Below are positions 28,725-44,619 of a stretch of 64,000 nucleotides of DNA, in pieces. The number at the start of each line of letters is the position of its first letter. Within the stretch, counting starts at the first letter, position 1. Source of the stretch: Escherichia coli 042 (GTDB lineage Bacteria; Pseudomonadota; Gammaproteobacteria; Enterobacterales; Enterobacteriaceae). The stretch is from assembly GCF_000027125.1 (NCBI RefSeq), contig NC_017626.1. One strand, 5' to 3'. The notes beneath the pieces are model-generated. The model was given only the letters and a program-made list of their open reading frames with translations, had not been told where the DNA came from and did not search any database. The position numbers were made by a program, and so were the translations under genes.

Positions 28725-28786
28725 CCCGTCACAACCACATCACACCTGTTTTCACTTTTATCTTCTGTCTTCAGAGGTATCCCACC

Positions 28787-29008
28787 ATGAAAATCATCAC
28801 CCGTGGCGAAGCCATGCATATTCACCGTCAGCATCCGGCATCCCGTCTTTTTCCGTTCTGTACCGGCAAATACCGCTGGCACGGCAGTGCTGAAGCGTAT
28901 ACCGGTCGTGAAGTGCAGGATATTCCCGGTGTGCTGGCCGTGTTTGCAGAACGCCGTAAGGACAGTTTTGGTCCGTATGTCCGGCTGATGAGCGTCACCC
29001 TGAACTGA
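28787..29008 (+). CDS. DUF987 small protein (YeeT-like)
   Basis: 73-aa MKIITRGEAMHIHRQHPASRLFPFCTGKYRWHG... Confidence 0.6.
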   Translation: MKIITRGEAMHIHRQHPASRLFPFCTGKYRWHGSAEAYTGREVQDIPGVLAVFAERRKDSFGPYVRLMSVTLN

Positions 29009-29170
29009 TGTTCCGTCACCCGGAAAACGAGTACGACTGGCTGAGCTCAGACGCCGCTGTGGATGAGGTCCTGCTCATCAACGAATACACCTTTACCGAA
29101 GCCGGTCTGCGCGCCGGCTGACCCGTCATCGTTAAACTATCATTCACCGATTTTCTGTGAGGATTTTATC

Positions 29171-29539
29171 GTGTCAGACACACTTTCCGGGACAACGCAT
29201 CCCGATGACAATGACGACCATCCCTGGTGGGGACTACCCTGCACAGTGACGCCCTGTTTCGGCGCCCGTCTGGTGCAGGAGGGTAACCGGTTGCATTACC
29301 TTGCCGACCGTGCCGGTATCAGAGGCCGGTTCAGAGATGCGGATGCGTACCCTCTGGACCAGGCCTTTCCGCTGCTGATGAAACAACTGGAATTAATGCT
29401 CACCAGTGGTGAACTGAATCCCCGCCATCAGCATACCGTGACACTGTATGCGAAGGGGCTGACCTGTGAAGCCGACACCCTCGGCTCCTGTGGTTACGTT
29501 TATCTGGCTGTTTATCCGACACCTGAAACGAAAAAGTAA
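29171..29539 (+). CDS. cbeA: CbeA/YeeU-family type IV antitoxin
   Basis: GTG start; [52 protein letters not shown]... close to K-12 YeeU. Confidence 0.8.
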
Positions 29540-29628
29540 ACCACCGGAATAACCTTCTGCTCCGGCCTGGTGTTTTCACCACGCCACTGTCCCATTTTTT
29601 ATCTCTGCATATCAGGAAAATCTTCAGT

Positions 29629-30003
29629 ATGAAAACATTACCCGACACGCATGTACGGGAGGTATCGTGCTGCCCGTCTCCCGTCACCATCTGGCAGACA
29701 CAGCTCACCCGACTGCTGGACCAGCACTACGGCCTTACGCTGAATGACACACCGTTCGTGGATGAACGTGTGATTGAGCAGCATATTGAGGCAGGCATTT
29801 CACTGTGTGACGCGGTGAACTTTCTCGTTGAAAAATACGCGCTGGTACGTACCGACCAGTCGGGATTCAGCGCAGGAGCCTCGTCGCAGTTAATCAACAG
29901 CATTGATATTCTCCGGGCTCGCCGGGCAACAGGCCTGATGACCCGCCACAACTACAGAACGGTGAACAATATCACCCTGGGTAAGTATCCGGAGGCGAAA
30001 TGA
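29629..30003 (+). CDS. cbtA: CbtA/YeeV-family type IV toxin (cytoskeleton-binding)
   Basis: 124-aa [43 protein letters not shown]...; immediately downstream of antitoxin. Confidence 0.8.
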
Positions 30004-30142
30004 TGAAACTGGCCCTGACACTGGAAGCCGACAGTGTTAACGTACAGGCACTGAATATGGGGCGAATTGTCGTTGACATTGATGGTGTTAATCTCGCTGA
30101 ACTGATTAACATGGTCTGCGATAACGGCTACTGGATTTGCCC

Positions 30143-31048
30143 CTATATTTCCAGACACCTGTTATCACTTAACCCATTACTGGCTTGCTGCCGTAGATAT
30201 TCCCGTGGCGAGCGATAACCCAGTGCACTATGCGGATGCCATTCGTTATAATGCTCGAACGCCTCTGCAAGGTTCTTTGCTGCCGTTAACCCGTCTGGTT
30301 TGGGCATGACACTGATGTAGTCACGCTTTATCGTTTTCACGAAGCTCTCTGCTATGCCGTTACTCTCCGGACTCCGCACCGCCGTGTTCTTCGGTTCAGG
30401 CCCCAACATCCGGGCAAACTGCCGTGTTTCATTAGCCCGGTAGCATGAACCATTATCCGTCAGCCACTCTACTGGAGACGCCGGAAGCTCGTTGCCGAAA
30501 CGGCGTTCCACCGCTCCCAGCATGACGTCCTGTACTGTTTCACTGTTGAAGCCGCCCGTAGTGACCGCCCAGTGCAGTGCCTCACGGTCACAGCAGTCCA
30601 GCGCGAACGTGACTCGCAGTTTTTCTCCGTTATCACAGCGGAACTCGAACCCGTCAGAGCACCATCGCTGATTACTTTCTTTCACAGCCACTCTGCCGGT
30701 ATGTGCCCGTTTCGATGGCGGTACAGCGGGTTTTCGCTCAAGCAACAGCGCATTCTGGCGCATGATCCGGTAAATACGTTTGGCATTGATCGCAGGCATA
30801 CCATCAAGTTCGGCCTGTCTACGAAGCAGCGCCCATACCCGACGATAACCATATGTGGGCAGCTCTCCGATAACATGGTGTATACGGAGAAGCACATCCG
30901 TATCATCTGAGTGACGGCTGCGGCGACCATCTTTCCAGTCATCGGTTCGTCTGAGAATGACGTGCAACTGCGCACGCGACACCCGGAGACAACGGCTGAC
31001 TAAGCTTACTCCCCATCCCCGGGCAATAAGGGCGCGTGCGCTATCCAC
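30143..31048 (-). CDS. insD: IS2 transposase OrfB (InsD)
   Basis: 301-aa integrase-core transposase. Confidence 0.9.
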
Positions 31049-31416
31049 TTTTTTGCACGCCCATATTCAACGGCTTCTTTAAGGAGTTCATTTTCCATCG
31101 TTTTTTTGCCGAGCAGGCGCTGGAGTTCTTTAATCTGCTTCATGGCGGCAGCAAGTTCAGAGGCAGGAACGACCTGTTCTCCTGCGGCCACAGCAGTAAG
31201 ACTTCCCTCCTGGTATTGCTTGCGCCAGAGAAATAACTGGCTGGCTGCCACACCGTGTTGCCGGGCAACAAGGGAGACTGTCATTCCCGGTTCAAAACTC
31301 TGCTGAACAATAGCGATCTTTTCCTGTGTAGTACGCCGTCTGCGTTTCTCCGGTCCTAAGACATCAATCATCTGCTCTCCAATGACTAGTCTAAAAACTA
31401 GTATTAAGACTATCAC
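31006..31416 (-). CDS. insC: IS2 OrfA (InsC)
   Basis: Helix-turn-helix ...[47 protein letters not shown]... Confidence 0.9.
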
Positions 31417-31854
31417 TTAAATAAGTGATATTGGTTGTTTGGAGATTCAGGGGGCCAGTCTAGCTACTCCCTTCGTGTTGTTGATGAATCTGACCGGACC
31501 TCAGCAGACTGCACGCCACCATTTGTTGCCCTTACCGGCATACGCTGCAGTACCGCACATATCACGGAAACGGACAACGCCTGGCTGTACTCGCTGTCAC
31601 ACCAGACCAGTGACTTCGGTGAATCAGAATGGATTCATTTTACCGGTACCGGTTATCTGTTACGTACCGATGCGTGGTCATACCCGGTTCTGCGGCTTAA
31701 GCGCCTGGGGCTGTCAAAAACGTTCCGTCGTCTGGTCGTCACACTCATCCGGCGTTATGGTGTCAGTCTCATTCATCTGGATGCCAGTGCCGGATATCTG
31801 CCGGGTTTACCCACTTTCGACTGGTAATCCGGAAATTCACAACATGAAATCATT

Positions 31855-32020
31855 AACCACGGAAACAGCGCTGGATATTCTGATTACGTGGCTGCAGGAC
31901 AATATCGACTGCGAATCGGGAATTATCTTCGACAACGATGAGGATAAAACAGGTTCGGCAGCACTGTTGCGCTGTATCGAACAGGCCAGGGAGGGTATCC
32001 GTACCCTGCGCCAACAGTAA
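31855..32020 (+). CDS. hypothetical small protein (55 aa)
   Basis: MKSLTTETALDILITWLQDNIDCESGIIFDNDEDKTGSAALLRCIEQAREGIRTLRQQ; start chosen within track ORF 31439..32020. Confidence 0.35.
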
Positions 32021-32929
32021 CTTTTGCACCAGAACCAGTGAAGATCACTCACCCGATTTCACTTCCCTGACGTCAGCCTGAACACGGCTGGCGTTTTCAT
32101 TTATAAACAGAAAGGAAAAATGATGATGTCAGATACCACACTCTCCCGCCCGGAGGTGGTCAGCGGGCATACGGACGTTATCTATTCCACCTCAGTCTGC
32201 CACATTCTGGCTGTACGAAAGAGTACACTGTTGCCAATCGACACAATTATCCGGCATCAAGTAAGCGATATCAGTTAACCGATATAGATGGGGAAGATGC
32301 TTTTATCCGGATTGGTTCTATCGCGATGGTGCGAGTACCACTTGATGCAATGGCGCCTGTCGAGGAAGATGACGAGTAACAGAGCTCGGTATCTCAATCA
32401 GGACCTGATTGTCCTGGTTCGATGCCGAAAACCAGTGATTTTTCGTGTTGGTATCTGTGTTGGTATAGGATGGTGTTGTTTATTATTAACAATTTTAAAT
32501 CATGAGGTTAAATCGCATGTTTGAGTCCGGCCTTCGCACCACATCGTATGCAAATCGAGTCGCTCAAGGGCGGCTTTTTTTGTACCTGTGTTTTCACTAC
32601 TTTGTTTGCATGTAACGCTGATAATCTAAGAACTTCGGAAGCCCCATTTCCATCAATGATGTTCATTCATCATCCTGAAAATTAAGTAGATATAAAACTT
32701 CATTGCCTTGGTCTAATGGCACAGAAATAGATTGCATTTGGCGAGTGGCATTCTTAGTGCGTCGTTGTTTAGTCATGAAACGATGCGTAAAATTGCTGAT
32801 TTTATGTGTCAAAGTCCCGCAACCGGAGATGGCCTTACTTCAATGATCAACCACTATTGACGTATCCTTTTAATATCTTGATTCAATTCAGCAGGTTATC
32901 GTCCAAAGTACAGCGAAGAGAGAGAAAAG

Positions 32930-35821
32930 ATGATTGGTACAACACCTTATCATGCGAAATATTTTGCGCATGAACTTTCCATTCTTCATTCAAACAATGG
33001 GGTGGACCGTCTGTCTCAATCGCTGTTTGATGCAAGCGTAGATCTAAACCCTCATCAAATTGAGGCGGCTCTTTTTGCTATCGAAAATCCGCTAAGCAAA
33101 GGTGTTGTGCTTGCCGATGAAGTTGGTTTGGGTAAAACCATTGAAGCTGGACTAGTGCTTTGCCAGTTGTGGGCTGAAAGAAAACGTAAACTGTTGATCA
33201 TTTGTCCTGCTTCACTGCGTCGCCAATGGGCGAGCGAGTTACAGGAAAAGTTCAATCTACCTTCTCAGGTGTTGGACGCGAAAATGTATAGCCAGCTTCA
33301 AAAAGAAGGGATCCATAATCCCTTAAATAATAAATCGATCACTATCATGTCATACCACTATGCTGCTCGGTTAGAAGAGAAATTGGTGGCTGAAATGTGG
33401 GATCTGGTTGTTATCGACGAAGCCCATAAACTGCGTAATGCTCATCGAGAAAGCAACAAAATGGGGCAAGCGTTAAAGCGTGCGCTTGATGGGCGGAAGA
33501 AATTACTACTGACCGCAACGCCTTTACAGAACTCGTTGATGGAACTGTATGGCATGTCGACGCTTATAGATGAACATACCTTCGGCGAAGTTAAAGCGTT
33601 CAGAAAGCAATATATGCAGGCAGATAGCGATATTGCGGAGTTGAAGGGGCGATTGTCGCGTTTTATCAAACGAACTCTACGCAAGAATGTGCTGGAGTAT
33701 ATCAAGTATACAGAACGTAAAGCGATCACTATTCCTTTCTATCCGAGCGAACAGGAGCAGGATCTTTATGAACGCGTACAAAAATTGCTTGAACGTGAGG
33801 ATAGCTATGCCTTACCAAAACGACACCGGCATCTGACGGGGCTTATACTCAGAAAACTACTTTCCTCAAGTACGAAAGCCGTATTGAATAACTTGCAGAT
33901 CCTTAAGACTCGTTTAGAAAGGTTAAAGCTGGAAGGTATCGTTGAAGATGATATGGACATCATCCAACAGATCATAATGGATGATGATCTTGAAGATGAC
34001 ATCGTTGAAGATGCCGAATCAGTAGCGCCAGATACAGAGTGCAAATCTGTGGATTCAGATGCGCTTCAGGCAGAAATCAATGAGCTGGAATCACTCATTG
34101 TCAAAGCAGAACAGATTGGCACTGATACCAAATCAAAAGAGTTGCTTTCTGGCCTGGAGCAAGGTTTTGCACAGCTTGCCGAAATGGGGGCTGCAAAAAA
34201 AGTCATCATCTTCACGGAGTCGATGCGAACTCAACAGTACCTTGCACATTTTCTGGAAAACAATGGCTACCAGGGAAAAGTAGTAACCTTTAGTGGCACA
34301 AACAATACACCGCAGGCAAACAAGATCTACCAGCAATGGCGCGAGGAATATCAGGGATCTTCTCGTATTACCGGGTCGGCGCAAATTGATAAACGCTCGG
34401 CTTTGATCGACCACTTCAAAGATCATGCTGAAATCATGATAGCTACAGAAGCTGCAGCTGAAGGGGTGAACCTGCAATTTTGTTCGCTACTGATCAATTA
34501 CGATTTCCCCTGGAACCCACAACGCATTGAACAGCGTATTGGACGTTGTCACCGATACGGGCAAAAATTTGATGTGGTTGTTATTAACTTCCTCAATCAG
34601 CGAAACCAGGCCGATCAACGCGTTCTTGAACTCTTAACTGAAAAGTTCAGCCTGTTTGATGGCGTGTTTGGCGCATCGGATAGTGTGCTTGGCAGCATAG
34701 AAAATGGTGTGGATTTTGAAAAAAGGATCCAGTCAATTTATGAGTCATGCCGTACCCCCGAGGAGATAGAGCTGGCTTTTGAAAGGTTGCAGAAAGAGCT
34801 GGAAGATGAAATCAATCTCAAGATGCAGAAGACGCAAGAACAGTTGCTTGAGCATTTTGATGAAGATATTCACGATATCCTTAAAATAAGGCTTGATGAA
34901 GCTCGGGAGCGCCTGGATAAAGTCGGTCGTTGGTTTTGGGCCGTGACCTGTCAGCAGCTCAAACAATATGCTGATTTTGATCATGAGCATCATCGTTTCA
35001 CTTTACGTGAATCAGTCAATGAACTGCCTGTCGGGCAGTACCAGCTGTTGCGCAAAGATGGCAGGCAAAATAGTGCGTTACAAATGCAGGATCACCACAG
35101 TTTTGCATATCGGATCAATCATCCGCTGGGTGAGTACGTCATTGAGGGAGCCAAAGCCCAGGAGACGAAAACAGCTGAAGTCATCTTCGATTACAGTAAC
35201 CACACAACGAAAGTTTCGGTGGCTGAGCAGCTGAAAGGGCAATCAGGATGGTTAACACTAAATTTGCTTACTGTTGATGCGTTTAACAGGCAGCAATTTT
35301 TAGTCTTTACCGCGAAAACTGACAACGGACGTGTGGTAGATGGTGAAGCTTGTAAACGTCTGTTCAACTTGTCTGCAATAACCAACGAAAAGCTGGATAA
35401 TTCGGCAAGTTTAGATGCATTACCTGATGACTTGATCTTACTCAAGAACAGGCAAATTGACGCCAGGCTTGCAGAAGTTTTGGAGCAGAACTATGTCCTT
35501 TTTGAAGCGGAAAGAGATAAGCTGGAAAAATGGGCTGAAGACATGATCTTTGCGGCGGAAGAAGCATTACGCGATACCAAAATGCAAATCAAGTCGTTGA
35601 AGCGAGAAGCCAGGCTGGCGCAATCGATCGAAGAACAAAAGCAAAACCAGGAAAAGCTTAAGCTACTGGAACGGCAGCAGAAGCGTCAACGTATGGAAAT
35701 TTTTGACATTGAAGATGAGATCGCCGACAAGAGGGATGAACTCATCAGTGCCCTTGAAGAGCGGATGAAGCAAAAGACGGATATCACCGAGCTGTTTACC
35801 ATCCGCTGGAAAGTTATTTAA
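32930..35821 (+). CDS. SNF2-family ATPase, RapA/HepA-like, short N-terminus
   Basis: 963 aa. Motif I LADEVGLGKTIEAG, motif II VVIDEAHKLRN, motif III LLLTATPLQN, motif VI QRIGRCHRYGQ; C-terminal coiled-coil-like region. Several blocks resemble RapA; RapA N-terminal domains absent. Confidence 0.85.
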   Translation: MIGTTPYHAKYFAHELSILHSNNGVDRLSQSLFDASVDLNPHQIEAALFAIENPLSKGVVLADEVGLGKTIEAGLVLCQLWAERKRKLLIICPASLRRQWASELQEKFNLPSQVLDAKMYSQLQKEGIHNPLNNKSITIMSYHYAARLEEKLVAEMWDLVVIDEAHKLRNAHRESNKMGQALKRALDGRKKLLLTATPLQNSLMELYGMSTLIDEHTFGEVKAFRKQYMQADSDIAELKGRLSRFIKRTLRKNVLEYIKYTERKAITIPFYPSEQEQDLYERVQKLLEREDSYALPKRHRHLTGLILRKLLSSSTKAVLNNLQILKTRLERLKLEGIVEDDMDIIQQIIMDDDLEDDIVEDAESVAPDTECKSVDSDALQAEINELESLIVKAEQIGTDTKSKELLSGLEQGFAQLAEMGAAKKVIIFTESMRTQQYLAHFLENNGYQGKVVTFSGTNNTPQANKIYQQWREEYQGSSRITGSAQIDKRSALIDHFKDHAEIMIATEAAAEGVNLQFCSLLINYDFPWNPQRIEQRIGRCHRYGQKFDVVVINFLNQRNQADQRVLELLTEKFSLFDGVFGASDSVLGSIENGVDFEKRIQSIYESCRTPEEIELAFERLQKELEDEINLKMQKTQEQLLEHFDEDIHDILKIRLDEARERLDKVGRWFWAVTCQQLKQYADFDHEHHRFTLRESVNELPVGQYQLLRKDGRQNSALQMQDHHSFAYRINHPLGEYVIEGAKAQETKTAEVIFDYSNHTTKVSVAEQLKGQSGWLTLNLLTVDAFNRQQFLVFTAKTDNGRVVDGEACKRLFNLSAITNEKLDNSASLDALPDDLILLKNRQIDARLAEVLEQNYVLFEAERDKLEKWAEDMIFAAEEALRDTKMQIKSLKREARLAQSIEEQKQNQEKLKLLERQQKRQRMEIFDIEDEIADKRDELISALEERMKQKTDITELFTIRWKVI

Positions 35822-35826
35822 TTGAT

Positions 35827-38800
35827 TTGAAAGAGAAAATAATGAGTAAGTACAACGAATTAGTTAAGAAGTTAAAAGAAATTTTTCAGATTGATCGACC
35901 AGAACTGGATTTCGGTATTTATCGTATTTTAAATGCACGTGCTGATGAAATTAACGACTATCTGGATAATAAGCTGAAGGCCAAAATCCAGTCTGCGCTG
36001 GCGGATGCAGGAAATGCCAATAAATCAGAATTAGAACATCAGTTGCAACTGACAATAAAAGCGGCAACTGATGCGGGTGTAGACCCTGCTGATAGCCCAA
36101 AAGTACAGGAGCTTAAAAAGCAACTGGCGGCTATGGCATCCGGAGCAAATGAGCATGAAAATGCAGTATTTTCCCATCTGCTCACTTTCTTTTCGCGTTA
36201 TTATGACAACGGCGATTTTATCAGCAAACGCCGTTATAAAGGTAATACCTACGCCATCCCCTATTCTGGCGAAGAAGTGATGTTGCACTGGGCAAATAAG
36301 GACCAGTACTACATTAAAAGCGGTGAAAACTTCGCTAATTATTCGTTCAAATTAGAAGACGGTCGTAAAGTTAGCTTTAAATTGCTCGCAGCGGACACAG
36401 CAAAAGATAACCGTAAAGATAATGAATTAGATCGCTGCTTTGTACTTATTGAGCCGCATGTTCGTACCAAAATTGATGAAGAAGGCGATGAGTACGAACA
36501 AGAATATAAGCCAGTAGAAGTGGTGAAAACTTCATCTGTGGTTGACGGTAAACTCGTTGAAACAGAAGAGTTAGTTATTCATTTCGAATATAAGGCAATG
36601 AAAAAGGGCACTAAGCAGGATGCTTTAGTGCAGTCCGCTATTTCAAAAATTCTGGCTGATAAAACAGTACAACAGCATTGGGTTGATCTTGCTAAACGTG
36701 CGCCAACCGAAAAAAATCCGTCACGTACAGAGTTGGAGCGTCATTTAACAACATATACCCAACGTAATACGGCTGACTACTTTATTCATAAAGATCTCGG
36801 TGGCTTTTTAACGAACGAACTGGATTTTTATATTAAAAATGAAGTAATGAATCTCGATAATGTGCAAAATGCAGAAGTGTTTGCTAATATTGAGAAACAA
36901 CTGCGCATGATTCAATGTTTGCGTGCTGTTGCGCTGGAACTCATCACTTTTTTGGCACAGATTGAGAATTTCCAAAAGAAACTTTGGACTAAGAAAAAGT
37001 TTGTTGTAGAGACAAACTATATATTTACCGTAGATAAGTTACCAGAGGAATTATATTCAATTGTCATTAAGAATGATGCCCAATGGGAACAATGGAAGCA
37101 ATTAGGTTTCCTCAGCGATTTTTCGGGAGATAGAGAGAAAACTCTGAAAGAAAAACAAGGGTTAATTGTTGATACTTCATTATTTGATTCCAAGTTCAAA
37201 GAGAAATTTATCAACAATATCGCTGATGTTGACACAAATGTTTCCGCTTATTTATATAGTGGAGATAATTATCAAGTGTTAAATCTTATTAAAATAAAAT
37301 ATAATAATAAAGTTGATGGTATATATATAGATCCACCTTATAATACCAATGCGTCTGAGATTTTATACAAAAACGGTTATAAGGATAGCTCATGGTGTTC
37401 TTTAATGAGTTCTCGTTTAGAGATAAGTAAATCCTTATTAAAAGAAAATGCAGCTACTTGTACAACTATTGATGAGTATGAAGTTGCTAATTTGGAATTA
37501 TTGCTAAAAGAAACGTTTACAGGATATCAAATCAGACCTGTTGTTATTGAATATAACCATCGAGGACGAGTTAAAAGTAATTTCGCTATTACCCATGAAT
37601 ATGCTTTATGGACCTTACCAGAAAATAAAGATGTAATATCGAGACAAGTTGAAATATCAGAAGAAATTAGGCGTAACTTGCGTAGAACTGGTTCAGGTTC
37701 TACTCGTGCCGAATCTGAAAGTCAATTTTATGGCATCGAAGTTGACAATAATACCCTCGAGATTGTCAATGTAACCGAAGCTTTACCAAGTTTAGATTCA
37801 GCAATTCCTACGCATCTAAATAAAGATACAACAATGGTATGGCCAGTAGATGACCAAGGGGTTGAGCGGCGCTGGTACTATGGGCGAGATCGTGTTATTC
37901 GCGAAGCTAAAGAAGGTACTGTTTGGGCGAAAAGAATAAAAGGTGAGATACAAATACATTACAGACAAGCAGGAAAACCTAAAATGCGTAAATCTGTATG
38001 GATTGGTCCAAAGCTTGACGCAAGTACCTATGGTTCGGAACTATTAAATAGTTTGTTTAACGTGACTCAGATTAATTTTTCTTTTCCAAAAAGTATTTAT
38101 GCGGTTAAGGAATGTTTAGAGTCGCTTAGTAATTCGAAGTATGCTCATTTCTTAGACTATTTTGCTGGCTCTGGTACTACAGGGCATGCAGTGGTAGATA
38201 TGAATAGGGATGATAATGGTTTTCGAAAATTTAGCTTGGTCGAACAAGGTGAATATTTTTATTCTGTTACCTTGCCTAGAGTAAAAAAAGCTATTTTTAC
38301 AACTGATTGGAAGTATGGAAAAGCACTAAGCTGTAATCCAGTTGAGCAGACATTAATAAAATATATTAAAATTGAGAGTTTTGAGGATACTCTTAACAAT
38401 ATAGCACTGAAACGTACTGAAACAACAAAGGATCTTTTCGACGATCTTAAAGAAATTCGAGAGGATTATGTTCTTAACTATATGCTTGAAACAGAAAGCA
38501 AAGGCTCACTACTCAATACTGATAATTTCAAAAAACCATTTAACTACGAAATGGATGTTACAACGGATTCCGCAGGTGCTACTGAGCGTAAGAACATCGA
38601 TTTAGTTGAAACTTTCAACTATCTCATTGGCTTACATGTGAAATCCATCGAATCCAATATCGAACGTGGCTATGTGCGTGTTGAAGGAACGCTACCAACT
38701 GGCGAGCGTACCCTTATTCTGTGGCGCGATTGCGACAAGATCGGCTATGAAGAATTGAATAAATATGCCAACAGATTCGATTTATATGCAAAAGAAAATA

Positions 38801-38946
38801 CGTTCGACGTTATCTATATCAATGGCGATCATAACTTACCTACCGCCTTTACCGTTGATGAAGAAGACGGCGAGATTGTTCGTAGCCTGAAAATCCGCCA
38901 GATCGAACCTGAATTCTTGAACCTGATGTTTGCGGAGGAGGTTTAA
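35827..38946 (+). CDS. DNA methyltransferase, N6-adenine/N4-cytosine (beta-class order), Type III Mod-like with N-terminal extension
   Basis: 1039 aa. Motif IV DPPY (IYIDPPYNT, about 37330) precedes motif I FxGxG (DYFAGSGTTG, about 38160), with a roughly 290-aa variable region between; about 500 aa of unrecognised N-terminal sequence. 6-nt gap after SNF2 gene. Confidence 0.8.
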   Translation: MKEKIMSKYNELVKKLKEIFQIDRPELDFGIYRILNARADEINDYLDNKLKAKIQSALADAGNANKSELEHQLQLTIKAATDAGVDPADSPKVQELKKQLAAMASGANEHENAVFSHLLTFFSRYYDNGDFISKRRYKGNTYAIPYSGEEVMLHWANKDQYYIKSGENFANYSFKLEDGRKVSFKLLAADTAKDNRKDNELDRCFVLIEPHVRTKIDEEGDEYEQEYKPVEVVKTSSVVDGKLVETEELVIHFEYKAMKKGTKQDALVQSAISKILADKTVQQHWVDLAKRAPTEKNPSRTELERHLTTYTQRNTADYFIHKDLGGFLTNELDFYIKNEVMNLDNVQNAEVFANIEKQLRMIQCLRAVALELITFLAQIENFQKKLWTKKKFVVETNYIFTVDKLPEELYSIVIKNDAQWEQWKQLGFLSDFSGDREKTLKEKQGLIVDTSLFDSKFKEKFINNIADVDTNVSAYLYSGDNYQVLNLIKIKYNNKVDGIYIDPPYNTNASEILYKNGYKDSSWCSLMSSRLEISKSLLKENAATCTTIDEYEVANLELLLKETFTGYQIRPVVIEYNHRGRVKSNFAITHEYALWTLPENKDVISRQVEISEEIRRNLRRTGSGSTRAESESQFYGIEVDNNTLEIVNVTEALPSLDSAIPTHLNKDTTMVWPVDDQGVERRWYYGRDRVIREAKEGTVWAKRIKGEIQIHYRQAGKPKMRKSVWIGPKLDASTYGSELLNSLFNVTQINFSFPKSIYAVKECLESLSNSKYAHFLDYFAGSGTTGHAVVDMNRDDNGFRKFSLVEQGEYFYSVTLPRVKKAIFTTDWKYGKALSCNPVEQTLIKYIKIESFEDTLNNIALKRTETTKDLFDDLKEIREDYVLNYMLETESKGSLLNTDNFKKPFNYEMDVTTDSAGATERKNIDLVETFNYLIGLHVKSIESNIERGYVRVEGTLPTGERTLILWRDCDKIGYEELNKYANRFDLYAKENTFDVIYINGDHNLPTAFTVDEEDGEIVRSLKIRQIEPEFLNLMFAEEV

Positions 38947-38948
38947 GA

Positions 38949-41900
38949 ATGGCTAAAAAACCGACCACCGGTAAAGCAGTTAAAAAAGAGACTAACAGCA
39001 AGCTGAGCTTTCATAAGCAGTTGGTTTTAAACCGCTTTATGTTCCATTTTTTTAAAGATGGCACATTGCAAGGTTTGAAGAATCGGTTAGGCGAGGATCG
39101 CTTTGAAGGCATCCATGAAGATGGCCAAAGCTTATTCTTCCATGAGCTGAGTAACTATTTATTCGAGGTCGATCTTATCGATCTCGATGAACTGCGTCGT
39201 TACGATCTCAATATCGTGCAGCACTGGCAGCAGATAACCGAGCACCGTAATCGTAAAGAAGACACAGTGCTGAACATGAAATATTTTCAGTACTTGTCGC
39301 TTCTGTTTACCGAGATCTACCTGGACTGGTACTTCAACCGTAAACAGCAATTACTCGATGGGCTAAATAACGAGCTGGCAGCATACAATGCTGAAAATGA
39401 TAAAACAGCAAAAGACCGGGCTAATCAGTTCAAATCATACGTTCTGGATGATTTGAATAAACTGGCATACTGGAACGCTACTGGTTCTGGTAAGACACTG
39501 CTATTACATGTCAATATTTTGCAATATTTACATTATTTCCAGAACGGTAATAGCCATCATTACCCGGATAAAATCATCCTGCTTACGCCGGATGAACGCC
39601 TATCGAAGCAACATTTAGATGAACTGGAAAACTCAGGATTTACCCAATACCAGTTATTCGATAAGAGTAAATCCGCGCCATTTAAAGGCACGATTGAAGT
39701 TATTGATATCAATAAACTTGCCGATGAAATGGGTGACAAAACTGTTGCCGTTGAGGCATTTGAAGGCAACAATCTGGTCTTGATTGATGAAGGGCATAAA
39801 GGCACAGGAAGTGCTGCTGGTGCCTGGATGCGCCGTCGTGACAAATTAACGCGTGACGGATTTGCGTTTGAATATTCAGCAACTTTTGGCCAGGCAGTGG
39901 CCGGTGGCAATAATGTTGAGGCAGTTGAAACAGAAATTCAGAAGAAAAAAGCAAAGCTGCTTTTTGAAACAACTGCCTTAGGTAAACTGAGCGAAGAACA
40001 GTTAGCGCAAATAGCATTAACCAGCGAAGAACAACGTGATGCGCGTATTCAGGCGACACGAGAAGTCTATGGGAAATCGATTCTGTTCGATTACTCCTAT
40101 AAATTCTTCTATGAGGATGGTTATGGTAAAGAATCACTGATTCTTAACCTTAATCCTGAAGAGGATAAAAAAGATGAGCGTCGGTATGAGTATTTTACCG
40201 CGTGTTTGCTCAGCTTTTATCAGCAACAATATTTATTCAATAAGAATAAAGAAAAATTAAATGAATTTAATATCGAAAAACCGCTATGGGTTTTTGTCGG
40301 TAACACCGTAAGTGGTGAAGATTCAGACATTCACGCAGTACTGCGTTTTTTAGCATGGTTTTTAAATCATGAATCGCAGGCAAAATCGTGGATTAAAGAT
40401 CTCATTGAAAATAAAGCGCGAATTCTTGATACCAAAGAGCGTAACATTTTTGAAAATCGCTTTACCGCACTAATGAACGGCCCGGAAGATATCTACGCAG
40501 ATATTCTTTCTCGTTTGTTTAACACCACTCACTCAGGTCAGAGACTGCGAGTTCTGAATTTAATAGGCAGTAAAGGTGAACTGGCATTACAGGTTGGTGA
40601 GGCCGAACCGTTTGGTCTTATCAATATTGGTGATGCACCGTCTCTTTACAAAATGTGTGAAGAGGATACGACATTTGATTATCAGAGAGATGATTTTGCG
40701 AAGTCACTCTTTCATACGTTAAATGACAAAGACTCGCAACTACATATTTTGATCGGCTCGCGAAAATTTACTGAAGGCTGGAGCAGTTGGCGCGTCTCAA
40801 CGATGGGATTGCTCAATATGGGCCGTGGAGAAGGTTCACAGATCATTCAGTTATTTGGTCGTGGCGTTCGCCTTAAAGGTCGCAATTATTCTTTGAAACG
40901 CAGTACACCCGGTGAGCGTCCGAAAGGGTTGCATCTGGAAAAATTAGAGACACTGAATGTATTCGGTGTACGTGCCGATTACATGGCAACCTTTAAACAA
41001 TACCTGGAAGATGAAGGGATTACGCCAAGTGACGAGATCCTTGAGCTGAATTTTGAAACTCGGCCAAATATGCCAGCAACCAGGCTTAAAACACTTAAGC
41101 TTAAAGATGGTTATAAAGATAATCAAAGACTCGGCTTTAAACGTGTCTATTTTCCCGAATTGTATGAAGTTCCTGCTGATTTTCAGGGGAAAATTAAGCA
41201 GCCGCATATTAAGCTGGACCTATACCCGAAACTTGAGTCGATTGATACCAGCAGAAAAGGGGACAATACTCCGGTTAACGTGCGTAATGAAGCGAAGTTA
41301 GATTATAAAATCATTAGTGCGTTTGATTTTGATCGGCTTTATCTCGCCATTCAGAATTATAAACTACAACGCGGCTGGTCAAATTTACGTGTGGATAAAC
41401 AACGTTTGATCGACTTTTGTACCGGTAAGACAAAGATCGGAAATAGTTGGTATACCCTTTTGATTCCAGCTTCAGAGCTTGAGATTAAGCAATATGCAGA
41501 TATTGCTAAGCAGGAAGATATTATGCTTCGTCTGCTGACTGATTATACTGATCGCTTTTACAACACATTGAAAAATGCTTATGAAGGTCAGTTTTATGAA
41601 GTCACGCAGGTGAAAGAAGATGATCCTGGTATGATCAAAATGTACCATTTCGAGATCGAAGAAACTGATGATGGGTTGGCATATGCCAGTCGGCTGGAAC
41701 AATTACAACAATTGGTCATCGACGGCGAAATCGGTAAAGCAAAATCCTGGAGTGCATCCGGGATGGTTGCTATTACCTTTGATAAACATCTCTATTATCC
41801 ACTTCTTTCGATTGAAAAAAATGCCAACATACCGCTAAAAATGCGACCGGCAGCACTGGGTGCATCAAGTGAGATTACTTTTGTCCATGATCTTCAGTCT

Positions 41901-42329
41901 TTTGTTGATTCGACAAAAGGGCAGAAAATTATTGGTGATAAAAGTTTATATCTGCTAAGAAATGCGGATTCTAAAAATAGAGGCCTGGGCTTTGCTACTG
42001 CGGGTAATTTTTATCCGGATTTCTTATTGTGGTTAGTCGATGATAAAAGTGGTAAACAATGGTTAAGTCTTATTGATCCAAAAGGCATCCGCAATCTTAA
42101 TCTTGATGATCCAAAGTTCGGATTATATAAAGAAATCAAGAATCTTGAACATAAATTATCGGATGATAACTTATCATTAAGTGCATTTATTGTTTCTGAA
42201 ACTTGTTATGTTGACTTAGTAAACGTACCTGATTCAAAAGAGAATCTGGAAGCCAGAAATGTGCTTTTTATTGAGGATACTGGCTCATTGTATCTGGAGA
42301 AATTATTCAGTAAGATGGTTAGCGAGTAA
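38949..42329 (+). CDS. SF2 helicase with C-terminal PD-(D/E)xK-like motif, Type III Res-like
   Basis: 1126 aa. Walker A NATGSGKT, DExH LIDEGHKG, SAT, QLFGRGVRLKG; C-terminal YPDFLLWLVDDKSGKQWLSLIDPKG. Start 2 nt after methyltransferase stop. Confidence 0.8.
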   Translation: MAKKPTTGKAVKKETNSKLSFHKQLVLNRFMFHFFKDGTLQGLKNRLGEDRFEGIHEDGQSLFFHELSNYLFEVDLIDLDELRRYDLNIVQHWQQITEHRNRKEDTVLNMKYFQYLSLLFTEIYLDWYFNRKQQLLDGLNNELAAYNAENDKTAKDRANQFKSYVLDDLNKLAYWNATGSGKTLLLHVNILQYLHYFQNGNSHHYPDKIILLTPDERLSKQHLDELENSGFTQYQLFDKSKSAPFKGTIEVIDINKLADEMGDKTVAVEAFEGNNLVLIDEGHKGTGSAAGAWMRRRDKLTRDGFAFEYSATFGQAVAGGNNVEAVETEIQKKKAKLLFETTALGKLSEEQLAQIALTSEEQRDARIQATREVYGKSILFDYSYKFFYEDGYGKESLILNLNPEEDKKDERRYEYFTACLLSFYQQQYLFNKNKEKLNEFNIEKPLWVFVGNTVSGEDSDIHAVLRFLAWFLNHESQAKSWIKDLIENKARILDTKERNIFENRFTALMNGPEDIYADILSRLFNTTHSGQRLRVLNLIGSKGELALQVGEAEPFGLINIGDAPSLYKMCEEDTTFDYQRDDFAKSLFHTLNDKDSQLHILIGSRKFTEGWSSWRVSTMGLLNMGRGEGSQIIQLFGRGVRLKGRNYSLKRSTPGERPKGLHLEKLETLNVFGVRADYMATFKQYLEDEGITPSDEILELNFETRPNMPATRLKTLKLKDGYKDNQRLGFKRVYFPELYEVPADFQGKIKQPHIKLDLYPKLESIDTSRKGDNTPVNVRNEAKLDYKIISAFDFDRLYLAIQNYKLQRGWSNLRVDKQRLIDFCTGKTKIGNSWYTLLIPASELEIKQYADIAKQEDIMLRLLTDYTDRFYNTLKNAYEGQFYEVTQVKEDDPGMIKMYHFEIEETDDGLAYASRLEQLQQLVIDGEIGKAKSWSASGMVAITFDKHLYYPLLSIEKNANIPLKMRPAALGASSEITFVHDLQSFVDSTKGQKIIGDKSLYLLRNADSKNRGLGFATAGNFYPDFLLWLVDDKSGKQWLSLIDPKGIRNLNLDDPKFGLYKEIKNLEHKLSDDNLSLSAFIVSETCYVDLVNVPDSKENLEARNVLFIEDTGSLYLEKLFSKMVSE

Positions 42330-42341
42330 ATAAATATGATT

Positions 42342-42374
42342 CTGCTCCATATCTCTGTGAGATATGGAGCAGAT
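42342..42374. terminator. hairpin between convergent genes (candidate bidirectional terminator)
   Basis: Inverted repeat CTGCTCCATATCTC / GAGATATGGAGCAG at 42342-42374, between stop of 38949..42329 (+) and stop of 42376..42678 (-). Confidence 0.55.
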
Positions 42375-42375
42375 A

Positions 42376-42678
42376 TTATCGCCAATGTGCAGGAATAATT
42401 AAGTCAAACGATTTTGCTGCATATTCAAGCATTTTTATTATTTCCCGGTGTCGTTCCTGGTCGAAAGACTGTCCATTTTTTCTACACTCTATAATCCCTT
42501 GTAATTCTTTTAGGTTAAACATATCAAGAAGATATAAATTTTTCCAGGTTGGTTGCCCGAAGAGGTTATAGACTGTTTCCGTAGCATCTCGTTCACTTGC
42601 TAATCTTTTCTCTCCTTCTATTCTTTCAAAAAATATTTCAGCTGTTTCTTTATCATCATAAGTATTTAATAATTCCAT
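42376..42678 (-). CDS. hypothetical protein (100 aa)
   Basis: AT-rich ORF convergent with the helicase gene; no family recognised. Confidence 0.4.
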   Translation of the reverse strand: MELLNTYDDKETAEIFFERIEGEKRLASERDATETVYNLFGQPTWKNLYLLDMFNLKELQGIIECRKNGQSFDQERHREIIKMLEYAAKSFDLIIPAHWR

Positions 42679-42990
42679 TATGATTTTCCTGATTAATGAA
42701 TTGATATCACGATAATTATATCATGAATAGATGTAAATTTACTATGTATATAAATTAATGTACAGTTCAACATGCTAATTATTTTTTAATTTGTAATGTC
42801 GATTGGTTAATAATTGGATTCTCTTATAATGAATATATATTTACTCTGACTAGAATATTTGTAAACGTGTTTTATATTGAGATTTTAAAATTGATTTATG
42901 GCTATGTACTCATAAATAATACTTTCGGTGTCAGAAAATACTTTATCTATTACATTTAAAATTCTAGGTGAAAGATATATAATGGTTACC

Positions 42991-43484
42991 TCACCCCCTA
43001 AAAAACTCTTTCCGATACCACTCTACAACCCCCTCAAAAGGGTAATTTTTACGCACCTGTGGCAACGCAATAATTTTTCCGTCAAAATCCCAGAATGACC
43101 TCTCAATGATCTCTCCGCCGTTTACCGCATCCAATACCAGTACCCGCATATTTTCATCCAGGCCAATCGTTCCTTTATCAAAGGCTTTATGATGTATCGC
43201 GCAAAGCGCCAGGCCATTGGGAATTTCACAAGGGCCACCATGTTGTTTCCATTTTATATGTGTCGCTTCCAGTGAGACGGTGGAGTTGCCGTAACAAATA
43301 TTAAAGCTACATATTGCGCACTGGTAGTTATAAGCGCGTAATACATGTTTGCGAAATAATGGGTCACGCTGCTTACGGATTTGCTGGAGAGCAAAAAAAG
43401 GCTCGTCAGCGATTTACTGGAAGCCATTGATATCCCTGGCAGTGAAATAATTGCGATCATGCTCGCAAATTTTCTGCGGTTCAA
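42991..43484 (-). pseudogene. HNH-nuclease-like gene, frameshifted
   Basis: Minus-strand frame ending at 42991 reads ...YNYQCAICSFNICYGNSTVSLEATHIKWKQHGGPCEIPNGLALCAIHHKAFDKGTIGL... but has no start; the ATG at 43484 is in another frame. Frames meet near the A7 run at about 43391-43399. Confidence 0.5.
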
Positions 43485-43638
43485 GCCTGCAAGCGAAGAT
43501 ATATTACCTTGATCTCATATGTTTTTTTACTTCCTGTGTGCCCTAATTGCCATGCGATGTTGCACCGACGCAAACCACCGTTTACGCCGGAGGAGTTAAA
43601 AGCGCTGATGGATGCGAATAAATCAAATTAATGAACGC

Positions 43639-44619
43639 TCACCTTTCGCGCCAAAACTGCAAAATTGCTTCTACAAACCTGTCAGAAATAATCCCTCGAC
43701 GGGCTGCCGCGCTGAAATGACTGCTTCGCAGTGCCGTCGTCCAGTTCTCCGGTGACCGGTACGCTGAACCGTAATATCCCGTGCTTAAATCGTCCGGATC
43801 TTCATCAGGCGCGTTCGTCAGTCCTCTTGCACCTTGTTGCTGGAAGTCGACGAAAATAATATTGGCTAGAACATTATTTTGATAATTGCCATAAATAGCT
43901 TCATACGCATGAGGGAAATTTTCTTTCCAGTACCAGGTGGTATCGCCGCAAAACCACGGCGCGTCAGTAATTTTATTAAGCTGAGAATGGTATTGTTTTA
44001 GATCCCTACGAAAGGCGTCAACCATATGATTAAAGTGTTGAGGGTGTGACGCGTAGTCACTGGTCATTAAGTCAAATTCGCCTTGCATCCAGCATACGCC
44101 GAGGAATTTGTTCTGCGGATTTTTTGCCAGTGCGGCTCGCGTTCTGCTGACTAAATCCTGGTATAGCGGAGTATCCGTTCCCCAACGACAAGCATCATGG
44201 CTGGCTCCGTGCCGTTCTGAATATGTCCCTTCGCTGCCCGCGGTAAAAGCCGATCCGCCACGGCAACACGGAACGATGAGAACCCCTGCATTATCAGGAA
44301 TAAAGGGCAGTAATTTCCGTGCTATATGTAGTGCCTGGCCAACGGTGCCGTACTGTGTTTGATGATTCGTTGCCAGAGGATGGTGATAACCCTGCATATC
44401 CTGAACATCGTGTGGGCAGTGAGTCAGTGGAATAATGTCGTTAAAGTGACATGACGGGCCTCCGGGATGTGTATGCGCAAATCTCGCTAATTGTTTAATT
44501 CTGGGATGAGGCGCATCTTCCTTGTCCGGTAATGGTAGTCCTTCGCCATACGCCATGGCATTAGACTGACCAGCAACGGTAAGAACATAGTAATAATCGG
44601 GCGATATTATTGCGTTCAT
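43639..44619 (-). CDS. nanS: N-acetyl-9-O-acetylneuraminate esterase NanS
   Basis: MNAIISPDYYYVLTVAGQSNAMAYGEGLPLP..., recalled as K-12 NanS (YjhS). Confidence 0.85.
   Translation of the reverse strand: MNAIISPDYYYVLTVAGQSNAMAYGEGLPLPDKEDAPHPRIKQLARFAHTHPGGPSCHFNDIIPLTHCPHDVQDMQGYHHPLATNHQTQYGTVGQALHIARKLLPFIPDNAGVLIVPCCRGGSAFTAGSEGTYSERHGASHDACRWGTDTPLYQDLVSRTRAALAKNPQNKFLGVCWMQGEFDLMTSDYASHPQHFNHMVDAFRRDLKQYHSQLNKITDAPWFCGDTTWYWKENFPHAYEAIYGNYQNNVLANIIFVDFQQQGARGLTNAPDEDPDDLSTGYYGSAYRSPENWTTALRSSHFSAAARRGIISDRFVEAILQFWRER

What the first reader, a model, noticed from the sequence alone, without database searches (positions are those of the whole stretch)
42376..42678. Orphan 100-aa gene tail-to-tail with the helicase gene
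An AT-rich ORF with no recognisable family, separated from the operon by a 14-bp perfect inverted repeat (42342-42374). It may be an accessory component of the same acquired block.
Basis: inference. Interest (0 to 1): 0.3.

Follow-up and report, generated by a model that had tools for sequence, protein, structure and literature searches.

The report
Small companion gene of restriction-type defence cassettes
The 100-codon ORF is a real, strongly conserved gene of an undescribed protein family that, in over 70 bacterial species, sits directly next to DNA-methyltransferase-based anti-phage systems of at least six kinds, so it is a generic companion of such cassettes, not a dedicated part of this helicase operon.

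Summary
ORF 42376-42678 (-) is 100 aa, ATG to TAA, 33% GC, with an AGGA 8 nt upstream. It lies 46 nt tail-to-tail from the helicase gene. A perfect hairpin lies between them, at 42341-42355/42359-42373 (15-nt arms, not 14).

In 76 species-level loci the neighbour beyond its stop codon is convergent in 61 of 73 cases (median gap about 33 nt). In 62-66 of 73 the adjacent operon is methyltransferase-based:
- the same SNF2-MTase-helicase operon (13)
- a second type III-like system (6)
- Hma or Hma-like (17)
- BREX type 3 (11), type 1 (6), other BREX (2)
- type II RM (7)

Cassettes are swapped exactly at its stop codon, and gene plus cassette move between element backbones. Conversely, only 11 of 69 metagenomic copies of the three-gene operon carry it.

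So the "accessory of the same block" reading is partly right. The gene is a facultative, cargo-agnostic companion of methylation-based defence cassettes on mobile elements. Its molecular mechanism is unresolved. The family appears undescribed.

The parts
42376..42678 (-). 100-aa protein-coding gene (WP_000421876.1). It founds an undescribed, roughly 100-aa alpha/beta family with the motif GEKRLASERD..T..IYNLFGQPTWGNFY ... H.EI ... IP.HWL.
   Evidence: ORF and translation. RefSeq CDS. 113 homologues. Alignment A1 with invariant S28 R30 Y37 L39 W45 L56 P96. dN/dS 0.11. AF2 pLDDT 97.
42687..42690 (-). Shine-Dalgarno-like AGGA, 8 nt upstream of the ATG.
   Evidence: Read directly from the sequence. 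Not tested.
42709..42737 (-). Weak sigma-70-like promoter match (TTTACA, 17-nt spacer, TATCGT; 9 of 12 positions) in the AT-rich region upstream of the ORF.
   Evidence: The region has no more such matches than shuffled sequence, so this is only a candidate.
42341..42373 (.). Perfect 15-bp stem with a 3-nt loop between the two convergent genes. It is an intrinsic terminator for the ORF transcript and probably acts in both directions.
   Evidence: The near-identical copy in L025 keeps the stem through a paired C>T / G>A change.
32930..42329 (+). The adjacent defence cassette: a DrmD-like SNF2 helicase (963 aa), a type III-like N6/N4 DNA methyltransferase (1039 aa) and a 1126-aa ResIII/DEAD helicase that matches PADLOC 'REase_III' over its full length.
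42991..43413 (-). Upstream neighbour of the ORF: a pseudogene remnant of a phosphorothioate-DNA-binding (SBD-HNH, ScoMcrA-like) restriction endonuclease. It is context, not part of the unit.
   Evidence: RefSeq annotation. HNH_2 domain retained.

Best explanation
The ORF encodes a small, folded, soluble protein of an undescribed family. The family is carried by mobile elements (genomic islands, ICE-like elements, plasmids), mostly of Gammaproteobacteria. It acts as a facultative, cargo-agnostic companion of DNA-methyltransferase-based restriction-type defence cassettes.

Shown:
- The gene is under strong purifying selection.
- It is almost always the immediate neighbour of such a cassette. It usually lies tail-to-tail with the cassette's last gene, which is typically the effector or restriction-side gene.
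- The cassette next to it can be exchanged for a different type, with the breakpoint at the ORF's stop codon.
- ORF plus cassette can move together between unrelated element backbones.
- The three-gene operon does not need it.

Inferred:
- The adjacent proteins differ completely between cassette types (type III-like Res, HmaC, BrxL, BrxA, type II endonucleases). The protein therefore most likely acts in trans on something common to all of them. Candidates are the methylated or unmethylated state of DNA, the supply of S-adenosyl-methionine, phage anti-restriction factors, or a conserved host factor.
- My preferred version is that it moderates or safeguards the restriction side. It could ease establishment of the cassette in a naive host, or back the system up when it is inhibited.

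In the E. coli window, the hairpin simply terminates the two convergent transcripts.
For: Real gene:
- 113 homologues of fixed length.
- Mean column identity 72%.
- Median dN/dS 0.11 over 150 pairs, with synonymous sites near saturation.
- AF2 pLDDT 97, pTM 0.85.

Association:
- Of 76 species-level loci, the downstream neighbour is convergent in 61 and co-directional in 12. The median convergent gap is about 33 nt.
- Control: downstream neighbours of the helicase gene in general are convergent in 27 of 63 loci.
- The adjacent cassette is MTase-based in 62-66 of 73 loci.
- The same pattern holds on plasmids with XcyI/Pac25I and a BglII-like fragment.
- It also holds in an E. coli paralogue next to the leuX integrase.

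Link to the cassette rather than the backbone:
- ORF GC correlates with cassette GC (r = 0.85) more than with the upstream side (r = 0.61).
- Aeromonas (RadC-CbeA backbone) and Kosakonia (integrase backbone) share a contiguous ORF+hmaC stretch.
- In E. coli the ORF+operon unit is inverted relative to the DUF932-RadC-CbtA backbone, compared with Aeromonas and Pseudomonas.
- In some loci the ORF is translationally coupled to the cassette, with 1-2 nt gaps (L020, L024).
- Divergent family members sit head-to-head with an MmeI/Eco57I-type MTase plus helicase operon.

Cargo-agnostic:
- Near-identical ORFs flank a type III-like cassette, BREX-1 and BREX-3 (L032, L038, L048).
- L040 (type III-like) and L031 (BREX-3) share 93% nucleotide identity over the upstream region and the ORF. 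The identity stops at the stop codon.

Not a phage gene: no hits in 50,697 phage records and 2 hits in 2.9 million viral contigs.
Against: - There is no direct functional evidence and no expression data.
- There is no homology or fold match that points to any activity.
- The family tree follows host clade more than cassette type, as a backbone gene's would.
- Most copies of the three-gene operon lack the gene (11 of 69 have it), and by inference from family size so do most BREX and Hma systems. Any role is therefore dispensable.
- A single protein acting on six mechanistically different systems needs a shared target that I could not identify.
- The enrichment for MTase-based cargo was not tested against a formal background of what these mobile elements carry in general.
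- In E. coli the gene persists, or is cut by IS66, after the operon is lost. This shows linkage but not dependence.
Confidence: 0.45

Rival explanations
1. Boundary gene of a cargo slot. The protein serves the mobile element itself (maintenance, transfer or regulation of the element) and has nothing to do with defence. Defence cassettes accumulate and are exchanged next to it because it marks the edge of a recombination hotspot and provides the homologous anchor.
For: - The cassette swap has its breakpoint exactly at the ORF's stop codon, with a conserved upstream region (L040 vs L031; L053 vs L057).
- The tree follows host clade, with cassette types interleaved.
- The gene often lies next to a P4-type integrase or AlpA, or at the end of the DUF932-YqaJ-Gp3-RadC module.
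- Conserved-flank hotspots are a known pattern in P2/P4 elements, ICEs and Pseudomonas islands (PMC9122126, PMC12629846).
Against: - The gene occurs in many unrelated backbones, always beside an MTase-based cassette. These include integrase islands, RadC-type islands, a thyA-inserted three-integrase element, an ICE-like Salmonella element, and MobQ and IncP-like plasmids.
- L032, L038 and L048 share only the ORF itself; both flanks differ.
- ORF GC tracks the cassette better than the upstream side.
- Synonymous sites are saturated between lineages, so conservation is at the protein level, not the DNA level that an anchor would need.
- No conserved DNA motif follows the stop codon.
Confidence: 0.28
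2. Stand-alone counter-defence or guard gene. One version is an inhibitor of the host's methylation-dependent (type IV) restriction, which would let the element carry a foreign methyltransferase. Another is an anti-restriction protein that protects the element on entry. A third is a small back-up toxin or sensor that fires when the neighbouring restriction system is inhibited, as PrrC does with EcoprrI.
For: - The only common denominator of the neighbours is a DNA methyltransferase.
- The elements carry other anti-defence genes nearby, including an antirestriction protein and RadC/JAB.
- Defence and anti-defence genes co-localise in island hotspots (PMC12629846).
- In E. coli and Salmonella the gene lies beside a type IV-like SBD-HNH gene or its remnant.
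Against: - There is no similarity to ArdA, KlcA, Ocr, Arn or any toxin or antitoxin family.
- The net charge is only about -5 (counted from the sequence), unlike DNA mimics.
- Type IV enzymes differ between hosts, yet the protein is 50-68% identical from Pseudomonas to E. coli.
- The SBD-HNH neighbourhood is seen in only two genera.
Confidence: 0.17
3. Dedicated fourth subunit or regulator of the SNF2-MTase-helicase system.
For: - The arrangement is the same in 13 species and in all 8 close metagenomic relatives.
- The junction is contiguous in 183 E. coli genomes.
Against: - Only 3 of 61 operons in the 59-66% identity clade have the gene.
- Plasmid copies of the operon lack it.
- The same gene flanks at least five other system types.
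Confidence: 0.04
4. Spurious or decaying ORF in AT-rich junk at the island edge.
For: - AT-rich setting, with pseudogene neighbours.
- Truncated by IS66 in about 166 E. coli genomes.
- A few homologues are pseudogenised.
Against: - dN/dS is 0.11.
- Length is fixed at 100 aa across more than 70 species.
- The AF2 model is confident.
Confidence: 0.01

Closest known systems
Controller (C) proteins of restriction-modification systems
   Same: Both are small proteins (about 80-100 aa). Both are encoded beside RM systems of many specificities. C proteins are thought to make establishment in a new host safe.
   Different: C proteins are Xre-type helix-turn-helix dimers, encoded upstream of and co-transcribed with the endonuclease gene. 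This family has no detectable HTH, a beta-alpha-beta-beta plus three-helix fold, and usually lies convergent to the last gene of the cassette.
BrxR / CapW-type (wHTH-WYL) regulators found beside many different defence systems
   Same: Both are single families associated with several unrelated defence system types, and both are facultative.
   Different: Those regulators are about 290 aa, have recognisable domains, lie upstream of the operon and are repressors. This protein is 100 aa, has no known domain and lies at the 3' end. The weak complementary pattern I looked for with an HTH regulator did not hold.
Conserved flank genes of defence hotspots in mobile elements (P2/P4 hotspots, ICE hotspots, Pseudomonas GI-hotspots; PMC9122126, PMC12629846, PMC10121019)
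   Same: A constant gene lies next to a slot where different defence systems replace one another. The breakpoint is at the gene's end.
   Different: Known hotspot flanks belong to one backbone each and have a second conserved flank. This gene appears in many unrelated backbones and on plasmids, shares only itself between some loci, and is tied to one class of cargo.
RM-linked guard genes such as prrC within the EcoprrI hsd locus
   Same: Both are extra genes riding with a restriction system, dispensable for restriction itself.
   Different: PrrC is a 396-aa ATPase-anticodon nuclease embedded in one type I system. No enzymatic domain is detectable here.
Anti-restriction proteins of mobile elements (ArdA, KlcA/ArdB, Ocr, Arn)
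   Same: Both are small proteins of mobile elements, and such genes are encoded near this one in the same islands.
   Different: There is no sequence or fold similarity. The protein is not strongly acidic. It is linked to the element's own restriction cargo rather than to a leading region.

Membership tests
Component of the SNF2-MTase-helicase (type III-like / DISARM-like) system | Present with most instances of the system | tested here: not met
   It is present in 11 of 69 informative metagenomic loci. That is 8 of 8 in the clade at least 75% identical to E. coli, but only 3 of 61 in the 59-66% clade. It is absent from the plasmid copies.
Component of the SNF2-MTase-helicase (type III-like / DISARM-like) system | Found only with that system | tested here: not met
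   It also lies adjacent to Hma, BREX-1, BREX-3, a second type III-like system and type II RM.
RM controller (C) protein | Xre-type helix-turn-helix domain | tested here: not met
   No HTH family was found in Pfam for the query or for any of the 89 members. The AF2 topology is b-a-b-b-a-a-a.
RM controller (C) protein | Gene upstream of, and co-transcribed with, the endonuclease gene | tested here: not met
   It is convergent to the last gene in 61 of 73 loci.
BrxR/WYL defence regulators | wHTH plus WYL domains, about 290 aa | tested here: not met
   The protein is 100 aa with no Pfam or PADLOC hit.
Known anti-restriction proteins (ArdA, KlcA/ArdB, Ocr, Arn) | Sequence or fold similarity to a family member | tested here: not met
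Known anti-restriction proteins (ArdA, KlcA/ArdB, Ocr, Arn) | Inhibits restriction in vivo | not testable with these tools
   Needs a restriction-alleviation assay.
CbtA/CbeA-type toxin-antitoxin partner | Homology to CbtA toxin or CbeA antitoxin | tested here: not met
   No Pfam hit. It follows a CbeA antitoxin gene only in Aeromonas, with a 185-nt gap.
Intrinsic (rho-independent) terminator (the hairpin) | Stable G+C-containing stem-loop followed by a U-rich tract | tested here: met
   The stem has 15 bp, 7 of them G-C, with dG -26.5 and z about -6.3 to -7.0. The tail is AAUCAUAUUUAUUUA on the ORF strand. The U tract on the helicase strand (UAUUAUCG) is weaker.
Conserved flank of a mobile-element defence hotspot | Different cargo next to the same conserved flank, with the breakpoint at the flank's edge | tested here: met
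   L040 versus L031 share 93% nucleotide identity up to the stop codon, then carry a type III-like cassette and BREX-3 respectively.
Conserved flank of a mobile-element defence hotspot | Belongs to one backbone, with a second conserved flank on the far side | tested here: not met
   The upstream neighbours are heterogeneous. L032, L038 and L048 share only the ORF. No recurrent far-side family was found.

The most novel reading that the evidence does not exclude
A previously unrecognised protein module with a new fold rides with methylation-based immune systems of any type (type II and type III-like RM, Hma, BREX). It acts on a target they all share, for example by licensing safe establishment of a new methylation/restriction pair in a naive host, or by guarding these systems against phage anti-restriction. 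That would make it a cargo-agnostic 'fourth function' of restriction-type immunity, beside R, M and C.
Probability: 0.3. Interest if true: 0.75.

Novelty: new variant of a known kind. Interest (0 to 1): 0.55.

Why it matters
Accessory genes that travel with defence systems have repeatedly turned out to be regulators, sensors or counter-counter-defence factors. Examples are C proteins, BrxR/CapW and PrrC.

Here a single tiny family, with no detectable relatives and a confidently predicted fold that matches nothing solved, is tied to one mechanistic class of immunity. That class is systems that mark self DNA by methylation. The tie holds across at least six system types and across islands, ICE-like elements and plasmids.

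If the link is functional, it points to a requirement or vulnerability shared by BREX, Hma, type III-like and type II systems. That would be a handle on how such toxic cassettes are moved safely between hosts. If the gene is only a boundary marker, it is still a useful landmark for finding defence cargo slots in gammaproteobacterial mobile elements. Either way it is cheap to test in E. coli.

Tried and rejected
1. Homology to known families. Pfam, NCBIfam, PADLOC and PHROGs on the query, and Pfam on all 89 aligned members, gave nothing. Only COR-A appeared, at E >= 0.004 in 12 members, which I treat as chance.
3. A deep profile search of 1.84 billion cluster representatives found only 79 hits. 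Most are fragments, and there are no informative domain fusions.
4. A conserved DNA site (att-like site or repeat) after the stop codon that could explain precise cargo exchange: none found.
5. Antisense or read-through regulation as the reason for the tail-to-tail layout. I rejected this as a general mechanism. The family also occurs co-directional, operonic and head-to-head, and the E. coli locus has a strong terminator between the genes.
6. Complementary distribution with the small HTH regulator seen upstream of plasmid copies of the operon. This is not supported: the HTH is absent from 25 of 25 ORF-less metagenomic operons whose 5' end was visible.
7. HUH-type or other small recombinase. 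I considered this because of the beta-alpha-beta-beta topology and the conserved His and Tyr residues. No HUH motif lies on a strand and there is no structural match, so I dropped it.
8. DNA-mimic anti-restriction protein. The net charge is only about -5.
9. Phage origin. There were no hits in INPHARED and 2 in IMG/VR.
10. Literature. No paper mentions WP_000421876. Papers on E. coli and Pseudomonas defence hotspots and on Hma do not describe the gene.
11. Rfam found nothing in 41500-44000.

Full report
**1. What is in the window**

The window is E. coli chromosome; the stretch 42300-42950 is 100% identical to many complete genomes. The finding lies in a low-GC island at about 32-48 kb. On one side of the island is a CP4-57-like module of DUF932, antirestriction, RadC/JAB, YeeU-CbtA, DUF5983 and DUF957. 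On the other side is nanS-nanM-nanC.

The ORF at 42376-42678 (-) is 100 aa, ATG to TAA, and 33% GC. An AGGA lies 8 nt upstream of the ATG (read). RefSeq annotates it as hypothetical protein WP_000421876.1.

It is 46 nt tail-to-tail from the last gene of a three-gene operon at 32930-42329 (+). That operon encodes:
- a DrmD-like SNF2 helicase
- a type III-like N6/N4 methyltransferase
- a 1126-aa ResIII/DEAD helicase that matches PADLOC 'REase_III' end to end

The inverted repeat is real. Its arms are 42341-42355 and 42359-42373, 15 nt each and perfectly complementary, with a 3-nt loop. Folding gives dG -26.5 kcal/mol with z of -6.3 (+ strand) and -7.0 (- strand). The scan calls it a terminator for the ORF's strand. 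A near-identical copy in a metagenome-assembled genome keeps the stem through a paired C>T / G>A change. Upstream of the ORF lies a remnant of an SBD-HNH (phosphorothioate-dependent) restriction endonuclease, which still carries an HNH_2 domain. Rfam finds nothing in the region.

**2. It is a real gene of an undescribed family**

A search of 5.8 billion proteins returned 113 homologues. Seventy-eight are exactly 100 aa, and they are 50-68% identical to the query. They come from Aeromonas, Vibrio, Shewanella, Pseudoalteromonas, Marinomonas, Salmonella and other genera, and all are 'hypothetical'.

The alignment (A1, 89 sequences) has 72% mean column identity. Its signature is MKLLNTY ... GEKRLASERD.T..IYNLFGQPTWGNFY ... 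H.EI ... IP.HWL. Pairwise Nei-Gojobori estimates give a median dN/dS of 0.11 over 150 unsaturated pairs. Synonymous sites are near saturation overall.

AlphaFold2 with this alignment gives pLDDT 97 and pTM 0.85. The topology is b1-a1-b2-b3 followed by three helices.

No family or structure matches:
- Pfam, NCBIfam, PADLOC and PHROGs give nothing.
- A PDB profile search gives nothing.
- Foldseek against PDB and BFVD gives nothing.

A profile search of 1.84 billion cluster representatives found only 79 hits, mostly fragments, with no domain fusions. The family is therefore compact and narrow. It is essentially absent from phages: 0 of 50,697 records and 2 of 2.9 million viral contigs.

**3. Genomic association**

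A scan of one genome per species returned 76 loci. They come from Gammaproteobacteria, including many Pseudomonas, plus one Burkholderiales MAG.

I called ORFs, clustered the neighbours and annotated cluster representatives with PADLOC and Pfam. The gene just beyond the family gene's stop codon is convergent in 61 loci and co-directional in 12; 3 loci have no visible neighbour. As a control, the downstream neighbour of the helicase gene in 63 metagenomic operons is convergent in only 27.

The adjacent operon classes are:

| Adjacent cassette | Species loci |
|---|---|
| Same SNF2-MTase-helicase operon as in E. coli | 13 |
| Second type III-like Mod/Res pair | 6 |
| Hma (SNF2 HmaA, DUF1156 methylase HmaB, DUF499 ATPase HmaC) | 11 |
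| Hma-like / DUF1156 variants | 6 |
| BREX type 3 (ends in two brxA) | 11 |
| BREX type 1 (ends in brxL) | 6 |
| Other BREX | 2 |
| Type II RM | 7 |
| Another MTase close by (ambiguous) | 4 |
| Nothing recognisable | 7 |

So 62-66 of the 73 informative loci have a methyltransferase-based cassette next to the gene. Some cassettes carry embedded extras: PtuA (Septu), AAA_15+DUF4276, and SMODS+S_4TM.

Other contexts fit the same pattern:
- Plasmid pYKAM101 has the gene 16 nt tail-to-tail with XcyI endonuclease and Pac25I methylase.
- Plasmid pYTSY4-VIM has it 1 nt from a BglII-like endonuclease fragment.
- Plasmid pCh103 has it 33 nt from a truncated copy of the helicase gene.
- An E. coli paralogue lies between the leuX integrase and an AAA_5 / unknown / MTase set.
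- In Salmonella it precedes an MTase plus BglI/SfiI-like endonuclease.
- Two loci have it translationally coupled (1-2 nt gap) to the end of an MTase-containing operon.
- The most divergent members, in which the KRLASERD motif is replaced, sit head-to-head with an MmeI/Eco57I-type methylase plus T5orf172-ResIII helicase operon. The intergenic gap is 64 nt in L192.

**4. Is it tied to the backbone or to the cassette?**

The upstream side is heterogeneous. It can be a P4-type integrase with or without AlpA, a DUF932-YqaJ-Gp3-like-RadC module, an HTH gene, a NERD nuclease, or plasmid genes. Both kinds of rearrangement are visible at the nucleotide level.

*Cassette exchange beside a constant gene.* L040 (type III-like) and L031 (BREX-3) are 93% identical over 700 nt upstream plus the ORF, and the identity stops at the stop codon. 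L032, L038 and L048 carry a type III-like cassette, BREX-1 and BREX-3 respectively. They share 80-85% identity over the ORF alone.

*Movement of ORF plus cassette between backbones.* Aeromonas (after RadC-CbeA) and Kosakonia (after an integrase) share a contiguous ORF+hmaC segment. In E. coli the ORF+operon unit is inverted relative to the RadC-CbtA module, compared with Aeromonas and Pseudomonas.

Other evidence:
- ORF GC tracks the cassette (r = 0.85) better than the upstream side (r = 0.61).
- The neighbour-joining tree separates Pseudomonas from the other hosts, with cassette types interleaved.
- No conserved DNA motif follows the stop codon, and only some loci have a terminator hairpin there.

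**5. Reverse test**

I searched metagenomes with an alignment of the helicase protein (A2) and obtained 80 operon loci, of which 69 have enough downstream sequence to judge. The family gene is present in 11 of them. It is in all 8 loci where the helicase is at least 75% identical to E. coli's, but in only 3 of 61 loci in the 59-66% identity clade.

Copies of the operon on Klebsiella, E. coli, Aeromonas and Blastomonas plasmids also lack it.

Among 5,426 complete E. coli genomes:
- The ORF is full length in 198 genomes.
- It is contiguous with the operon in 183.
- It is truncated by IS66, with the operon lost, in about 166 more.
- It survives IS1-mediated loss of the operon in a few.
- A 60-80% identical paralogue is present in 11.

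**6. Interpretation**

The gene does belong with the acquired defence block and co-occurs with the same operon in other genera. But it is neither specific to that operon nor required by it.

The best-supported description is a facultative, cargo-agnostic companion of methyltransferase-based restriction-type cassettes on gammaproteobacterial mobile elements. The neighbouring proteins have nothing in common except that each system contains a DNA methyltransferase, and the gene usually abuts the effector end. I therefore infer a protein acting in trans on a shared target, most likely modulating or safeguarding restriction. This is inference (confidence 0.45); no activity is shown.

The main rival (0.28) is a slot-boundary gene whose function concerns the element, not defence. 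The clean breakpoints and host-tracking phylogeny favour this rival. The gene's promiscuity across backbones, its protein-level rather than DNA-level conservation, and its persistence next to MTase systems in every possible orientation count against it. A stand-alone counter-defence or guard role (0.17) is possible but has no positive evidence. A dedicated fourth subunit (0.04) and a spurious ORF (0.01) are contradicted by the data.

**7. Comparison with known systems**

In its behaviour the gene resembles three known things:
- C proteins: small and RM-linked.
- BrxR/CapW regulators: one family beside many system types.
- Conserved flanks of defence hotspots.

It fails the defining features of each. 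It has no HTH or WYL domain, it lies at the 3' end and usually convergent rather than upstream, and it has no single backbone or second conserved flank.

I found no paper describing it. The Hma study notes defence genes inserted within hmaABC but not this gene (PMC11232893). The Pseudomonas island study defines hotspots by other flanks (PMC12629846).

**8. Verdict**

This is a real and apparently undescribed defence-associated small protein family. It has a confidently predicted fold that matches no solved structure and a robust, unusual association pattern. Its mechanism is unresolved. Interest is moderate (0.55). The gene is cheap to test in E. coli, and it would be notable if a cargo-agnostic role in methylation-based immunity were shown.

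Noticed in passing
window 32930-42329 (+): This three-gene operon encodes a DrmD-like SNF2 helicase (below the NCBIfam DISARM cut-off), a 1039-aa type III-like methyltransferase and a 1126-aa helicase/'REase_III'. It is a widespread unit: 189 E. coli genomes, at least 25 plasmids and 233 confirmed metagenomic relatives of the helicase. It lacks DrmB and DrmC, so it is neither classical DISARM nor classical type III RM. It may deserve a study of its own.
   Followed up: partly
window 42991-43413 (-) and 43509-43631 (+): These are pseudogene remnants of a phosphorothioate-DNA-binding SBD-HNH (ScoMcrA-like) restriction endonuclease and of another HNH endonuclease, lying between the ORF and nanS. 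An intact SBD-HNH gene lies at the equivalent place next to the Salmonella homologue (L018, L019).
   Followed up: partly
E. coli genomes, e.g. L102 (NZ_CP086338.1) 8956-9123: In about 166 of 5,426 complete E. coli genomes, only codons 1-41 of the ORF remain (annotated WP_000421877.1). It is cut by an IS66 element and the whole defence operon is gone. This is a common scar of the island.
   Followed up: yes
L003-L008 (Aeromonas), L013 (Marinomonas), L028/L034/L044/L052/L087, L107 (pE31A): Other defence modules are embedded inside the Hma, type III-like or BREX operons that flank the gene. They include AAA_15+DUF4276, PtuA (Septu), and SMODS+S_4TM (CBASS-like). This matches the 'insertion within hmaABC' reported for Halomonas.
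   Followed up: partly
L192 7297-8026; L191 1466-2172: The divergent family members (P0144, P0152) replace the near-invariant KRLASERD strand with GQIMTEII or GHIVTEII. They are transcribed divergently from an MmeI/Eco57I-type methylase plus T5orf172-ResIII operon, in a region dense with small phage- or plasmid-like genes. The presumed functional surface may co-vary with the type of partner system.
   Followed up: partly
L024 9561-9998: In Pseudoalteromonas pernae, the gene immediately upstream of the family gene (2-nt gap) encodes a 145-aa protein with a weak EVE (modified-base-binding, PUA-like) match. The match has E = 8e-4, below the Pfam cut-off.
   Followed up: no
window 28300-32400: This is a CP4-57-like island module: DUF932, antirestriction (KlcA-like), RadC/JAB, DUF987, YeeU-CbtA toxin-antitoxin, DUF5983 and DUF957. 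It lies directly upstream of the defence operon. The same DUF932-YqaJ-Gp3-like-RadC module precedes the family gene in Aeromonas and Pseudomonas, but there the gene plus cassette are in the opposite orientation.
   Followed up: partly
window 47732-48235 (-): An IS1 transposase lies next to a truncated fimbrial gene. The fim region between nanC and gntP appears to be deleted in this strain background (RefSeq annotation of the identical locus L001).
   Followed up: no
L106 611-856 (pEC316_2); L013 7516-7737: An 81-aa Xre/HTH_26-type regulator overlaps the start of the SNF2 gene in plasmid copies of the operon. It is absent from the chromosomal and metagenomic copies examined. Its only relative among the loci fetched lies just upstream of the family gene in Marinomonas.
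   Followed up: yes
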